From UHGV virus genome UHGV-0397187: a stretch of 41,531 nt of DNA, one strand, 5' to 3'. Below are positions 2,206 to 10,136 of the stretch, one piece after another. The translations under genes were made by a program, and so were the position numbers. Within the stretch, counting starts at the first letter, position 1. The number at the start of each line of letters is the position of its first letter. The notes under the pieces were generated by a model. The model did not search any database. It saw only the letters and a list, made by a program, of their open reading frames with translations, and had not been told where the DNA came from. This stretch comes from a virus.

Positions 2206-2305
2206 ACCTCTTACGATATGACCGCCAGTAAATATACAGAATACTGGCGGGTGTGGTTGATTTTTAATAATCAGCTATGAAGTTCTAATTTGTATATAAT
2301 GCAAC

Positions 2306-7786: not shown

Positions 7787-7963
7787 CTTTTTTCCCCTTA
7801 ACGCCGGGTGGCGGAACGTTTTATCTACTGCGCTTTGTATCAATCAACAACTGCCGTCATGTTCGTATGCCTCAGGCTGGCTACTTAGCCCTGTTCAGTG
7901 GCTGGATAACTCGAGGTATTGTCCTGCCGTTCTCTGGTGGGGCGTTGTTTGGATATGCTTATT

Positions 7964-8001
7964 AAACACAATGTGTTTTCTTGTGTCAACACGAAATGTG
8001 T
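7964..8001. promoter_or_regulatory. operator-like palindromes downstream of repressor gene (OL-like)
   Basis: aacaca-a-tgtgtt at 7964-7976 and aacacg-aaa-tgtgtt at 7987-8001; same AACACA/TGTGTT half-sites as the site at 8564-8578. Confidence 0.5.
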
Positions 8002-8086
8002 TTTGTGGTGGGTGTCATATGATGATGGTACAAAAAAAGCCCGCTGATAGCGGGCTGATTGGCATATTACTGTGATAGCAAGATCA

Positions 8087-8506
8087 TTACTCCGGTGGGG
8101 GATTATCTTTAAGCCTGCCTCTCAAATATTTTTCTACATACTCATCGATTTCTTTTAGCCGGACTTCAAATAGCTCAATCATTCGTTGTTGTTCTGAGCC
8201 CGGTAGCTGGTTAAACAACTCAAGAAGTTTTCGTTGGGATTCATTTAACCACAATTCAGAAGATTCCTGTTCTCCAAAGAGGAGCTCAGGTGGAGATATG
8301 CCAAGAGCCTTTCCCAATACGACAGCGTCATGCACTCCAACATTTCTGCTGCCCGCCTCATAGTTACCTATACGCGATTGCGTCCATCCGCAGATTTCAG
8401 CAAGTTTTCCTTGAGATAAACCAAGCTTCTGCCTGCGCTCTTTAAGACGCATTGCAATTTTGTCATTGAGCCTACTAGCGGCAATTTTTTCGTTTTCTTT
8501 TTCCAT
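8087..8506 (-). CDS. prophage repressor, HTH (XRE-family, RacR/CI-like)
   Basis: RQKLGLSQGKLAEICGWTQSRIGNYEAGSRNVG is a classic HTH; divergent from a Cro-like gene across a 96-bp operator region. Confidence 0.8.
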   Translation of the reverse strand: MEKENEKIAASRLNDKIAMRLKERRQKLGLSQGKLAEICGWTQSRIGNYEAGSRNVGVHDAVVLGKALGISPPELLFGEQESSELWLNESQRKLLELFNQLPGSEQQRMIELFEVRLKEIDEYVEKYLRGRLKDNPPPE

Positions 8507-8517
8507 TGCATCCTTGT

Positions 8518-8578
8518 ATCACGAATCGTGATTTACATAAAACACAAAACAGCTTGACCATATAACACAAGATGTGTT
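8518..8578. promoter_or_regulatory. divergent promoter/operator region (OR-like) between repressor and cro-like gene
   Basis: Palindrome atcacga-a-tcgtgat at 8518-8532; palindrome aacaca-aga-tgtgtt at 8564-8578 lying between a ttgacc -35-like and taaaat -10-like element. Confidence 0.55.
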
Positions 8579-8602
8579 TAAAATTGTCATCGGAGGTTTT
8601 CA

Positions 8603-8845
8603 ATGAACAAAATTTCAACATATCGAAAACAGCTTGGGCTGTCTCAAAGACAACTCGCTGTTCAGTTAGGGTGGATACAAAGCCGACTGGCAAATTACGA
8701 AGCAAATTTTCGTACCCCTGGACTAGAGGAGTGCAGAAAAATTGTTTCTACCCTTAATCGGCTTGGCGCTCATTGTGGACTTGACGATGTATTCCCCCCA
8801 GACGGTAAGCATAGCGAAAACAGCATAGGAGCGGTTGATTCATGA
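8603..8845 (+). CDS. Cro/YdaS-like HTH regulator
   Basis: RKQLGLSQRQLAVQLGWIQSRLANYEAN: HTH paralogous to the repressor HTH; first gene of the rightward operon. Confidence 0.75.
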   Translation: MNKISTYRKQLGLSQRQLAVQLGWIQSRLANYEANFRTPGLEECRKIVSTLNRLGAHCGLDDVFPPDGKHSENSIGAVDS

Positions 8846-9264
8846 AAATCAGGCATGAGCACATCGAATCAGTGTTGTTAGCCCTGGCAGCCGAAAAAGG
8901 GCAGGCGTGGGTCGCTAACGCAATTACTGAAGAATATCTGCGCCAGGGGGGCGGCGAATTGCCCCTGGTACCAGGCAAGGACTGGAACAATCAGCAGAAT
9001 ATCTATCATCGTTGGTTGAAAGGTGAAACGAATGCGCAAAGGGAAAAAATTCAGAAACTGATCCCAGCAATTCTGGCAATCCTTCCGCGCGAGCTGCGTC
9101 ACCGACTCTGCATCTTCGATACCCTGGAACGCCGTGCATTACTGGCGGCGCAGGAAGCGTTGAGTACGGCAATTGATGCGCATGATGATGCAGTCCAGGC
9201 CGTTTACCGGAAAGCACATTTCAGCGGTGGTGGGTCGCCCGGCGATTCTGTCGTAGTGCATTGA
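8842..9264 (+). CDS. YdaT/CII-like regulatory protein
   Basis: 140-aa ORF directly after the cro-like gene, same size and position as Rac ydaT; family assignment by position and recollection only. Confidence 0.45.
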   Translation: MKIRHEHIESVLLALAAEKGQAWVANAITEEYLRQGGGELPLVPGKDWNNQQNIYHRWLKGETNAQREKIQKLIPAILAILPRELRHRLCIFDTLERRALLAAQEALSTAIDAHDDAVQAVYRKAHFSGGGSPGDSVVVH

Positions 9265-9309: not shown

Positions 9310-9727
9310 GTAACGCTGTGAGCGTTACAAGGTGAAAACAAATGGCTTCAAACTGGATAAAGCTCGAGGTTATTACGCCGGATAAGCCGGAAATATTCAG
9401 GCTTGCTGAGATTCTGAATATTGATCCAGATGCCGCATTAGGGAAGGTTATTCGCTTCTGGGCATGGGCGGATCAACAAATGATAGACGGTAATGCAGAT
9501 TGTAACGCTCGCGGCGTTACAAAAAGTGCAATAGATCGCATCACTTTTATGGCTGGTTTTGCTGATGCGTTAATTCAGGTTGGATGGCTGGTCGAAAATG
9601 ACGGTGGGCTTTCTCTACCTAACTTTGAACGTCATAACGGGAAAAGCTCTAAAAAACGGGCGGTTACAAACGAGCGAGTTACAAAAATACGCGAACTGAA
9701 ACGAAAAGGTAACGCTGGCAGCGTTAC
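9310..9727. repeat. iteron-like palindromes (candidate origin / initiator binding sites)
   Basis: gtaacgc-N5-gcgttac at 9310-9328, 9502-9520 and 9709-9727, plus half-sites (ggttacaaa, agttacaaa) near 9662-9690. Confidence 0.5.
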
Positions 9728-10136
9728 ACAAATGGATCAAAAAGCGTTACCAGAGGAAGAGGAAGAGGAAGAGGAAGATATAAATACTGATCTCCCCCTA
9801 AATCCCCCTCGCCAAAAACGAGCGTCTAAAAAATTTGAGCCGGAGGCTATTGAGCTGCCCGATTGGTTGCCGGAAACACTCTGGCATGAGTGGGTCCGGT
9901 TCAGGCAGGCATTGCGAAAACCGATTCGAACGGAGCAGGGCGCTAACGGGGCGATACGGGAGCTGGAAAAATTCCGCCAGCAGGGTTTTACACCTGAGCA
10001 GGTGATTCGACACAGTATCGCCAATGAATACCAGGGCCTGTTCGCGCCGAAAGGTGTTCGGCCTGAGACGTTGCTCCGACAGGTTAACACCGTCTCGTTG
10101 CCGGACAGTGCGATCCCGCCAGGCTTCAGGGGGTAA
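9342..10136 (+). CDS. replication initiation protein (O-like / YdaU-like)
   Basis: 264-aa ORF upstream of a DnaC-like loader; contains the iteron-like palindromes and an acidic (EEEEEEEED) linker. Confidence 0.55.
   Translation: MASNWIKLEVITPDKPEIFRLAEILNIDPDAALGKVIRFWAWADQQMIDGNADCNARGVTKSAIDRITFMAGFADALIQVGWLVENDGGLSLPNFERHNGKSSKKRAVTNERVTKIRELKRKGNAGSVTQMDQKALPEEEEEEEEDINTDLPLNPPRQKRASKKFEPEAIELPDWLPETLWHEWVRFRQALRKPIRTEQGANGAIRELEKFRQQGFTPEQVIRHSIANEYQGLFAPKGVRPETLLRQVNTVSLPDSAIPPGFRG

What the first reader, a model, noticed from the sequence alone, without database searches (positions are those of the whole stretch)
7964..8578. Two classes of operator palindrome flanking the repressor gene
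AACACA-N(1-3)-TGTGTT occurs twice downstream of the repressor (7964-7976, 7987-8001) and once inside the rightward promoter spacer (8564-8578). A different palindrome, ATCACGA-A-TCGTGAT, sits at 8518-8532 near the repressor start. This suggests OL/OR-like sites with variable spacing, possibly for two different proteins (repressor and Cro-like).
Basis: seen in the sequence. Interest (0 to 1): 0.45.

Follow-up and report, generated by a model that had tools for sequence, protein, structure and literature searches.

The report
Lambda-type operators of a Rac-like prophage
The palindromes are the repressor and Cro binding sites of an ordinary lambda-style lysis/lysogeny switch in an E. coli Rac-like prophage; the two "classes" are variants of one operator family, so this is an uncharacterised member of a well-known kind.

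Summary
The sequences are real and non-random: 3 AACAC-N(3-5)-GTGTT hits against 0.24 expected, and a unique ATCACGAATCGTGAT. All sites belong to one operator family, A-[A/T]-CAC-N5-GTG-[T/A]-T, the same TATCAC/TAACAC half-sites and spacing as phage lambda's 17-bp operators.

The right-hand region is collinear with lambda OR. OR3 (8518-8532), OR2 (8541-8555, only one conserved half) and OR1 (8564-8578) have centres 23 bp apart. OR2 runs into the PR -35, OR1 into the PR -10, and OR3 contains an extended -10 for the repressor gene that predicts a leaderless mRNA. The left pair is OL2/OL1 on a PL promoter.

Across 108 loci of this immunity type, 0 of 25 half-site bases vary against 36 of 71 other intergenic positions. 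The "N1-spaced" palindrome at 7965-7977 is not conserved, so the "variable spacing" is an accident of this allele.

The repressor (DicA-like, 139 aa, no peptidase domain) and the Cro-like protein have almost the same recognition helix, so they should read the same sites. Across about 14 related immunity types, OR1/OL half-sites track the repressor helix and the OR3 proximal half tracks the Cro helix. This suggests OR3 is Cro-preferred, as in lambda. Verdict: new member of a known kind, low-to-moderate interest.

The parts
7961..7966 (-). PL -10 hexamer (TTTAAT on the minus strand)
   Evidence: Read from the sequence: TTGACA-17 nt-TTTAAT. Invariant among 50 OL haplotypes. Not flagged by the consensus scan, which requires A at hexamer position 2.
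7965..7979 (.). OL1: weak or half operator in the PL spacer. Only the -10-side half (AACAC, 7965-7969) is conserved.
   Evidence: Positions 7973-7979 vary in every column; TTAAACAC is invariant. The centre is 24 bp from the OL2 centre.
7984..7989 (-). PL -35 hexamer (TTGACA on the minus strand)
   Evidence: Conserved in nearly all loci of this type (two of its six columns each show a rare variant, e.g. L025 and L012/L031) and also present in the Salmonella type.
7988..8002 (.). OL2: strong operator AACACG-AAA-TGTGTT overlapping the PL -35
   Evidence: The AACAC and GTGTT halves are invariant while the centre varies. The equivalent site exists in every related immunity type, using that type's own half-site class.
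8038..8056 (-). Rho-independent terminator after the repressor gene
   Evidence: 8-bp stem with 6 GC pairs, followed by a T run.
8087..8506 (-). Repressor gene (CI analogue): 139 aa, an HTH_3 domain plus a C-terminal helical hairpin, no peptidase domain; DicA-like
   Evidence: NF007257 DicA model matched end to end, 57 bits against a 101-bit cutoff; AlphaFold model, pLDDT 86.7.
8513..8521 (-). Predicted PRM extended -10 (TGaTACAAG). It places the transcription start on the A of the repressor ATG (8506), giving a leaderless mRNA.
   Evidence: cgTGnTAxxxx followed by 6 nt before the ATG in 118 of 129 distinct intergenic regions (7 nt in 10), across about 20 helix types. Same register as lambda PRM. 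Inferred, not measured.
8518..8532 (.). OR3: ATCACG-AAT-CGTGAT, overlapping PRM
   Evidence: unique in the window. Arms invariant, centre variable. Starts 14-15 nt from the repressor start codon in all types.
8541..8555 (.). OR2: AACACA-AAA-CAGCTT. Only the left half is conserved. The last three bases of the 17-mer are the start of the PR -35, as in lambda OR2. The centre lies 42 bp from the predicted PRM start.
8553..8558 (+). PR -35 hexamer (TTGACC)
   Evidence: A TTGAC motif is conserved at this position in nearly all related types.
8564..8578 (.). OR1: AACACA-AGA-TGTGTT in the PR spacer, overlapping the -10
   Evidence: Halves invariant; the centre takes at least 8 different triplets.
8577..8582 (+). 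PR -10 hexamer (TTTAAA), 17 nt after the -35
   Evidence: Relatives have [operator outer 2 nt]+TAAT at the same place. Inferred.
8603..8845 (+). Cro-like gene: 80 aa, HTH_3, recognition helix GWIQSRLANYE
8835..8852 (.). YdaT box (TTGATT-catgaa-AATCAg) spanning the ydaT start codon
   Evidence: One mismatch from the experimentally defined TTGATT-N6-AATCAA (PMC9986795, PMC11879457).
8842..9264 (+). ydaT: CII analogue
   Evidence: PF06254; phrog_163, CII-like activator.

Best explanation
These sites are the operator-promoter region of a lambda-type bistable switch in a Rac-like lambdoid prophage of E. coli. There is one operator family: a 15-17 bp site, (T)A[A/T]CAC-N5-GTG[T/A]T(A), with an odd central base pair as in lambda. 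The short DicA-like repressor (CI analogue) and the 80-aa Cro-like protein both read it, because their recognition helices are nearly identical.

Right operator: OR1 sits in the PR spacer/-10, OR2 (one good half) overlaps the PR -35, and OR3 lies on top of the extended -10 of the repressor's own promoter. Site centres are 23 bp apart.

Left operator: OL2 overlaps the PL -35 and OL1 (one good half) sits in the PL spacer, 24 bp away.

Inferred working, by analogy with lambda. In the lysogen, repressor dimers fill the strong AACAC-type sites (OR1, OL2) and cooperatively fill the adjacent weak sites (OR2, OL1), shutting PR and PL. Repressor at OR2, 42 bp from the PRM start, may stimulate PRM. OR3 carries T instead of A at lambda position 3 in both halves. 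It is the site used to shut PRM, by the Cro-like protein after derepression and possibly by excess repressor. The repressor mRNA from PRM is predicted to be leaderless. YdaT (CII analogue) has its own box at the cro/ydaT junction.

Shown here: the sites, their geometry, their conservation, collinearity with lambda, and helix/half-site covariation. Inferred: who binds where, with what affinity order and cooperativity, and the transcription starts.
For: (1) Enrichment: 3 hits against 0.24 expected; the second palindrome is unique.

(2) Geometry: centres at 8525/8548/8571 and at 7971/7995. The region is collinear with the annotated lambda OR: CAT, 10 nt, 17-mer, 6 nt, 17-mer ending in the TTG of the -35, 6-7 nt, 17-mer. 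Lambda's own operators use the same TATCAC and TAACAC halves.

(3) Purifying selection: across 108 loci and 35 OR haplotypes of this immunity type, 0 of 25 half-site bases vary against 36 of 71 other intergenic positions (Fisher p=1.3e-6), and 5 of 9 centre-triplet bases vary. The OL2 halves are invariant and the PL -35 is nearly so.

(4) Same recognition helix in both proteins, with 45% identity over the HTH. The repressor aligns without gaps to lambda CI 22-75, which puts its Q43-S44 on lambda Q44-S45.

(5) About 20 related helix combinations in 274 loci share the architecture. OR3 starts 14-15 nt from the start codon, and a TGnTA extended -10 lies 6 nt before the ATG in 118 of 129 distinct intergenic regions.

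(6) Covariation over 14 helix-pair types. OR1 position 2 is A if and only if repressor helix residue H1 is Gln, matching the published Cro code H1/+2 of Gln/A and Pro/T (PMC6649833). OR1 and OL half-sites follow the repressor class: AACAC, TTCAC or GACAC. OR3 proximal position 3 is T when Cro residue H5 is Ala (8 of 9 types) and C when it is Ser (4 of 4 types).

(7) In relatives OR3 is a hybrid that includes an OR1-type half.

(8) Classical phages mEp213 and VT1-Sakai have related CI/Cro helices and three xxCAC-N5-GTGxx sites. The VT1-Sakai GenBank record already annotates them as putative operators.

(9) Related Rac and CP-933P switches have footprinted operators in the same places, with different sequences.
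Against: There are no binding, footprint or transcription-start data for this immunity type, so every assignment of protein to site is inference. The consensus promoter scan did not call PR, PL or PRM, because their -10 hexamers (TTTAAA, TTTAAT, TACAAG) fail its A2/T6 rule; the promoters rest on position, conservation and collinearity with lambda. OR2 and OL1 have only one conserved half, so they may be bound weakly or not at all. The helix-H5/position-3 correlation rests on few independent lineages, has one exception (KQSRIA Cro with ACCAC), and holds only partly in mEp213 and VT1-Sakai. The always-A at OR3 proximal position 2 can be explained by the PRM -10 (T at -12) rather than by protein recognition. 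Rac YdaT also footprints inside the racR-ydaS intergenic region, so a third protein acting at OR is not excluded.
Confidence: 0.8

Rival explanations
1. One reading: two distinct operator classes, each bound exclusively by a different protein. The repressor binds only AACAC...GTGTT and the Cro-like protein binds only ATCACG...CGTGAT.
For: In this immunity type OR3 is symmetric ATCAC/ATCAC and no other site carries that half. The OR3 proximal half covaries with the Cro helix, not the repressor helix. Some phages do have lytic repressors with a single private site (PY54 Cro, title and abstract of PMC4488713).
Against: The two recognition helices differ only at Ile/Leu and Gly/Ala. The two 'classes' differ at a single outer base per half and share core, spacing and register. 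In relatives OR3 is a hybrid with one repressor-type half. The Cro-like protein would then have no way to turn down PR and PL.
Confidence: 0.12
2. The ATCACGAATCGTGAT palindrome is bound by a third factor, either YdaT (the CII analogue) or a host regulator, rather than by the switch proteins.
For: Rac YdaT footprints inside the racR-ydaS intergenic region (PMC11879457). The palindrome is perfectly symmetric and unique in the window.
Against: The defined YdaT box TTGATT-N6-AATCAA has a different sequence, spacing and arm orientation, and a good copy sits at 8835-8852. The site is exactly 23 bp from OR2, at the lambda OR3 position, and shares the CAC-N5-GTG core. Its outer bases change with the immunity type while ydaT and its box stay conserved.
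Confidence: 0.04
3. The palindromes act as RNA hairpins (attenuators or processing sites) in the early transcripts, not as protein-binding DNA.
For: Each can form a 5-6 bp stem with a 3-nt loop.
Against: The stems are weak (-3.6 to -5.8 kcal/mol) and not significant (z -1.4 to -1.8; 9-18 of 200 shuffles fold as well). The sites lie in promoter spacers, upstream of the predicted starts. No compensatory changes are seen because the arms are simply invariant. The arm sequences covary with protein helices.
Confidence: 0.02

Closest known systems
Phage lambda OR/OL (CI, Cro; PR, PRM, PL)
   Same: Divergent repressor and cro genes. Three 17-bp sites 23-24 bp apart that are collinear with OR3-OR2-OR1, including the 10-nt gap to the start codon and the overlap of OR2 with the -35. 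TATCAC/TAACAC half-sites with an odd centre. Gln-Ser at the start of the recognition helix. PRM -10 in the same register, implying a leaderless repressor mRNA. A second operator cluster at PL.
   Different: The repressor is 139 aa with a helical C-terminal hairpin and no LexA-like peptidase domain. Cro is an HTH_3 protein homologous to the repressor's DNA-binding domain rather than a lambda-Cro fold. OL has two sites, not three. OR2 and OL1 keep only one conserved half. Inner operator positions 7-8 differ. CII is replaced by YdaT.
CP-933P (PaaR2/YdaS/YdaT) and Rac (RacR/YdaS/YdaT) cryptic-prophage switches
   Same: Same gene order (repressor, divergent Cro analogue, ydaT) and the same Rac-like left arm (recE, recT, kilR). 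Operators in the intergenic region and at a PL-like promoter have been footprinted there. The YdaT box lies at the cro/ydaT junction.
   Different: Different repressor and Cro alleles and different operator sequences: RacR uses [T/A]TAGGC-n3-GCCTA[T/A], and CP-933P uses 18-bp palindromes with the GTTTAGTAA consensus. So this is a different immunity specificity. There is no toxin-antitoxin cassette after the repressor here.
DicA/DicC of the Qin prophage and Gifsy-type short repressors
   Same: Short HTH repressor lacking an Ala-Gly cleavage site or peptidase domain, with lambda-like operator triplets at PR- and PL-equivalents (PMC10448788). End-to-end similarity to the NCBIfam DicA model.
   Different: The score is below the DicA family cutoff (57 against 101 bits). 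The recognition helix and operators are different. An antirepressor for this prophage was not identified here.
Stx1 phage VT1-Sakai and phage mEp213 immunity regions
   Same: Related N-terminal DNA-binding domain (49-58% identity), related Cro, and three xxCAC-N5-GTGxx operators 23-24 bp apart. In VT1-Sakai these are annotated as putative operators.
   Different: Those CI proteins carry a LexA-type C-terminal domain and lambda-type CII. The outer half-site bases differ. In VT1-Sakai OR3 lies 23 nt from the start codon, not 14.

Membership tests
Lambdoid OR/OL operator-promoter switch | Divergently transcribed repressor and cro genes separated by a roughly 100-bp control region | tested here: met
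   Repressor 8506..8087 (-), cro-like 8603..8845 (+), 96-bp intergenic region.
Lambdoid OR/OL operator-promoter switch | Three related, partially symmetric operator sites about two helical turns apart in OR | tested here: met
   Centres at 8525, 8548 and 8571, 23 bp apart. OR2 has only one conserved half.
Lambdoid OR/OL operator-promoter switch | Operators overlap PR on one side and the repressor maintenance promoter on the other | tested here: met
   Met by sequence position and collinearity with annotated lambda. Promoters are predicted, not mapped, and the consensus scan did not call them.
Lambdoid OR/OL operator-promoter switch | A second cluster of the same operators at a leftward early promoter (OL/PL) | tested here: met
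   OL2 at 7988-8002 and OL1 at 7965-7979 on TTGACA-17-TTTAAT: two sites, not three.
Lambdoid OR/OL operator-promoter switch | Repressor and Cro bind the same sites with opposite affinity order; repressor binds cooperatively | not testable with these tools
   Only indirect support: shared recognition helix, and half-site/helix covariation suggesting OR3 is Cro-preferred.
LexA-like (S24 peptidase) CI repressors | C-terminal S24 autocleavage domain | tested here: not met
   Only HTH families hit in Pfam. The protein is 139 aa, and the model shows a C-terminal helical hairpin.
DicA subfamily (NCBIfam NF007257) | Score at or above the curated cutoff of the DicA model | tested here: not met
   57.2 bits against a 101-bit cutoff, although the alignment covers 4-131 of 135 profile positions. 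It is DicA-like in architecture, not an orthologue.
Rac/CP-933P-type immunity region with YdaT as CII analogue | ydaT immediately downstream of the cro analogue, with a TTGATT-N6-AATCAA box at the junction | tested here: met
   PF06254 and phrog_163 hits. The box is at 8835-8852 with one mismatch. The box definition comes from PMC9986795 and PMC11879457.
Rac/CP-933P-type immunity region with YdaT as CII analogue | Same operator specificity as RacR ([T/A]TAGGC-n3-GCCTA[T/A]) or PaaR2/YdaS (GTTTAGTAA palindromes) | tested here: not met
   The operators here are A[A/T]CAC-N5-GTG[T/A]T, unlike the published sites. This is a heteroimmune relative.

The most novel reading that the evidence does not exclude
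Within one shared operator scaffold (CAC-N5-GTG), the two switch proteins may have separable specificity channels. Recognition-helix residue H5 (Gly, Ala or Ser) would read half-site position 3 (A, T or C). That would let OR3 be tuned to Cro independently of the repressor's OR1/OL sites, and would let cro and the repressor recombine inside OR to make new immunity types. An example is the same IQSRLA Cro found with two different repressor classes. This would add an H5/+3 rule to the published Cro 'evolutionary code' (H1/+2, H3/+5, H6/+6) and extend it to CI-type repressors.
Probability: 0.35. Interest if true: 0.4.

Novelty: new member of a known kind. Interest (0 to 1): 0.25.

Why it matters
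This immunity type is common: the full region is in 153 of 5,426 complete E. coli genomes, with close relatives in Salmonella. Databases annotate it only as 'helix-turn-helix protein', with no operators. Defining its OR/OL sites, promoters and likely leaderless repressor mRNA allows prediction of homo- and hetero-immunity among Rac-like prophages. It also gives precise targets for EMSA and reporter work. The natural series of about 14 helix/operator combinations is a ready-made data set for protein-DNA recognition rules. It does not reveal a new kind of regulatory mechanism.

Tried and rejected
1. RNA-hairpin reading: the folds are weak and not significant.
2. YdaT as the binder of the second palindrome: the YdaT box is a different sequence and is present elsewhere, at 8835-8852.
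3. 7-N1-7 register for 8518-8532: rejected because the seventh positions and the centre vary in relatives.
4. The N1-spaced 13-bp palindrome as a genuine variant operator: rejected because its right arm varies at every position.
5. A third OL site about 23 bp beyond OL2 (around 8018): no match to the family, and that stretch is replaced in the Salmonella type.
6. The consensus promoter scan gave no call for PR, PL or PRM. Its only nearby hit (8584-8613) runs into the cro ORF and was disregarded.
7. Fold search of the repressor model matched only the HTH domain; the C-terminal hairpin gave no informative hit.
8. The first version of the locus-parsing script hung. A first conservation test was distorted by one unrelated locus (L088) and was redone.
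9. The helix-H5/position-3 rule was checked on mEp213 and VT1-Sakai and holds only partly, so it is reported as suggestive only.
10. I looked for an antirepressor at the position where the RefSeq twin has an ORF6N protein. The window has DUF1367 and DUF1133 genes there instead.
11. Literature searches found no paper on this specific operator set.

Full report
**Observation.** The four palindromes exist:

| Sequence | Coordinates | Note |
|---|---|---|
| AACACGAAATGTGTT | 7988-8002 | left arm is AACACG, so the exact arms are 5 bp with N5 |
| AACACAAGATGTGTT | 8564-8578 | exact |
| ATCACGAATCGTGAT | 8518-8532 | exact |

AACAC-N(1-5)-GTGTT occurs three times in the window against 0.24 expected, and no shuffle out of 100 reached three. 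The second palindrome is unique in the window.

**Context.** The sites flank a 139-aa HTH_3 repressor gene (8506..8087, minus strand) that ends in a rho-independent terminator at 8056-8038. Reading rightward come an 80-aa HTH_3 Cro-like gene (8603..8845) and a YdaT-family gene (8842..9264; PF06254; PHROG 'CII-like activator'). The same element in RefSeq is a Rac-like lambdoid prophage inserted next to yebY: int, xis, ralR, recT, recE, ydaE, kilR, then repressor, cro-like gene, ydaT and ydaV. No operators are annotated there. The full immunity region is in 153 of 5,426 complete E. coli genomes. Only the cro/ydaT junction, which carries the YdaT box, is shared with a further ~740 genomes.

**One operator family, not two.** Written in the same register, the sites are:

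| Site | Sequence |
|---|---|
| OR3 | ATCACG-AAT-CGTGAT |
| OR1 | AACACA-AGA-TGTGTT |
| OL2 | AACACG-AAA-TGTGTT |

The centres are 8525, 8548 and 8571 (23 and 23 bp apart) on the right, and 7971/7995 (24 bp apart) on the left.

I fetched lambda's annotated operators for comparison. Lambda's OR3/OR2/OR1 centres are 23 and 24 bp apart, and its halves are TATCAC and TAACAC. The two regions are collinear:

- lambda: CAT, 10 nt, TATCACCGCAAGGGATA, 6 nt, TAACACCGTGCGTGTTG followed by ACT (completing the PR -35 TTGACT)
- window: CAT, 10 nt, TATCACGAATCGTGATT, 6 nt, AAACACAAAACAGCTTG followed by ACC (completing the PR -35 TTGACC), 3 nt (ATA), TAACACAAGATGTGTTT

In both, the last three bases of OR2 begin the PR -35, and OR1 runs into the PR -10. 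On the repressor strand the window reads TGaTACAAG, 6 nt, ATG. That is the same register as lambda PRM (TGaTAGATT, 6 nt, ATG). It is established knowledge that the lambda PRM transcript is leaderless; quotes PMC8630535 on this for lambda cI and for CP-933P paaR2.

PL on the minus strand is TTGACA (7989-7984), 17 nt, TTTAAT (7966-7961). OL2 overlaps the -35 and OL1 sits in the spacer, which mirrors PR: TTGACC (8553-8558), 17 nt, TTTAAA (8577-8582). The simple promoter scan did not call any of these, because their -10 hexamers fail its A2/T6 rule. The promoter assignments therefore rest on position, conservation and the lambda alignment.

**Conservation within this immunity type.** I collected 108 loci of the same immunity type (E. 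coli, plus Salmonella at 84% repressor identity). These give 35 distinct OR haplotypes and 50 distinct OL haplotypes.

- In OR, none of the 25 five-base half-site positions varies, against 36 of 71 other intergenic positions (Fisher p=1.3e-6).
- The centre triplets vary freely (5 of 9 positions). OR1 takes at least eight different centres, and OR3 takes AAT, ATT or ATG.
- This shows that 8518-8532 is 6-N3-6, not 7-N1-7.
- Only the left half of OR2 is conserved.
- In OL, the OL2 halves and the -10-side half of OL1 (TTAAACAC) are invariant, and the PL -35 is conserved apart from rare variants in two of its columns. Most relatives read GCGTTT, TTGTTT or ACGTTT there; Salmonella reads TCGCTA or TGATAT.

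So the perfect N1-spaced palindrome, and with it the 'variable spacing', is an accident of this allele.

**Who binds.** The two HTH domains are 45% identical and their recognition helices nearly coincide: GWTQSRIGNYE and GWIQSRLANYE. The repressor aligns without gaps to lambda CI residues 22-75, which puts its Q32, Q43 and S44 on lambda Q33, Q44 and S45. In lambda Cro, Gln H1 contacts base pairs 1-2 and Ser H2 contacts base pairs 4-5 (PMC6649833). This fits half-sites of the form A2-x-C4-A5-C6. Both proteins are therefore expected to read the same sites.

**Wider family.** Protein and locus searches gave about 300 loci, of which 274 could be parsed into about 20 helix combinations. All share the same layout: repressor, OR3-OR2-OR1, Cro-like HTH gene, and in nearly every locus where the next gene was examined, ydaT.

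- OR3 begins 14 nt (118 of 129 distinct intergenic regions) or 15 nt (10 of 129) from the repressor start codon. It always supplies TGnTA of an extended -10, although the 6-nt spacer sequence is not conserved. This supports a conserved PRM that produces a leaderless repressor mRNA.
- The CAC-N5-GTG core is constant. The two outer bases change with the recognition helix:

| Repressor helix | OR1 and OL half-sites |
|---|---|
| QSR[I/V]G | AACAC |
| [A/S/P][S/P]RxA | TTCAC or CTCAC |
| ASRVG | GACAC or GTCAC |

- OR1 position 2 is A exactly when repressor residue H1 is Gln (14 of 14 types). This reproduces the published H1/+2 rule of Gln/A and Pro/T.
- The repressor-proximal half of OR3 instead follows the Cro helix. 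It is ATCAC when Cro H5 is Ala (8 of 9 types) and ACCAC when Cro H5 is Ser (4 of 4 types), whatever the repressor class.
- The same IQSRLA Cro occurs with two different repressor classes. In both cases OR3 keeps ATCACG while OR1 and OL switch class.
- In the QSR relatives OR3 is a hybrid, ACCACG-N3-YGTGTT, which contains one OR1-type half.

Caveats on the covariation. The number of independent lineages is small, there is one exception, and the always-A at OR3 proximal position 2 is equally explained by the -12 T of PRM. The H5/+3 pattern holds only partly in mEp213 and VT1-Sakai.

**Relation to known systems.** Rac and CP-933P have the same gene order. Their operators have been footprinted at the same places but with different sequences: RacR uses TAGGC-n3-GCCTA, and PaaR2/YdaS use GTTTAGTAA palindromes. 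YdaT binds TTGATT-N6-AATCAA at the ydaS/ydaT junction, and the window has that box at 8835-8852. This makes YdaT an unlikely binder of 8518-8532.

The repressor matches the NCBIfam DicA model end to end but scores below its cutoff. It has no peptidase domain, so it falls in the short, non-cleavable, probably antirepressor-controlled class described for DicA and the Gifsy repressors.

Classical SOS-inducible phages mEp213 and VT1-Sakai carry a related DNA-binding domain, a related Cro, and three xxCAC-N5-GTGxx operators. In the VT1-Sakai record these are already annotated as putative operators.

**Verdict.** The finding is a genuine lambda-type OR (three sites) and OL (two sites). The interpretation 'OL/OR-like sites' is right. 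The claims of 'two classes' and 'variable spacing' are not. 'Two proteins' survives only as probable differential affinity, with OR3 favoured by the Cro-like protein. This is a new, uncharacterised member of a very well-known kind. The only modestly new element is the natural helix/half-site covariation series.

Noticed in passing
window 8835-8852: A YdaT box (TTGATTcatgaaAATCAg) spans the ydaT start codon. This 67-bp cro/ydaT junction (8834-8900) is conserved in 895 of 5,426 complete E. coli genomes, while the repressor, cro and operators are in only 153. So ydaT and its box are shared across many heteroimmune prophages.
   Followed up: partly
window 2257-2273: A second YdaT-box-like sequence (TTGATTtttaatAATCA) lies in an intergenic gap in the int/xis-side arm, next to a hairpin CCGCCAGTA...TACTGGCGG at about 2222-2251. 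It could be a distal YdaT site or chance.
   Followed up: no
L104 and 25 similar loci (Salmonella), compared with window 8507-8602: The same Cro recognition helix (IQSRLA) is combined with two unrelated repressor helix classes (QSRIG here, SSRIA there). OR3 stays the same and OR1/OL switch class, which looks like recombination inside OR creating new immunity types.
   Followed up: partly
GenBank PP818812 (hit H1): The record 'Actinobacillus phage vB_Apl-pPE4' contains pieces 99.8% identical to this E. coli immunity region (repressor annotated as DicA, plus ydaT). That is an unexpected host for an enterobacterial Rac-like module.
   Followed up: no
L086 / L100 (NZ_JBNNOB010000016, 'Sphingomonas sp. 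NPDC019816'): A contig labelled Sphingomonas carries a switch almost identical to one in Serratia (L107). This is probably contamination or a misassigned contig.
   Followed up: no
L090-L099, L101: These repressors share only the C-terminal helical domain with this one. They have a different N-terminal domain, a different Cro type (MTALDNAI...) and different operators (for example GTAAAC-N5-GTTTAC). This points to modular exchange of the DNA-binding domain together with its operators.
   Followed up: no
window 8087-8506 and about 15.6-17.1 kb: The repressor has no cleavage domain, so induction presumably needs an antirepressor. The RefSeq twin prophage has an ORF6N-domain protein downstream, but at the corresponding window position there are DUF1367 and DUF1133/Q-like genes instead. 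No antirepressor was identified.
   Followed up: partly
window 9342-10136: The 264-aa protein downstream of ydaT (at the ydaU position) contains a run of eight glutamates and has no Pfam hit.
   Followed up: no
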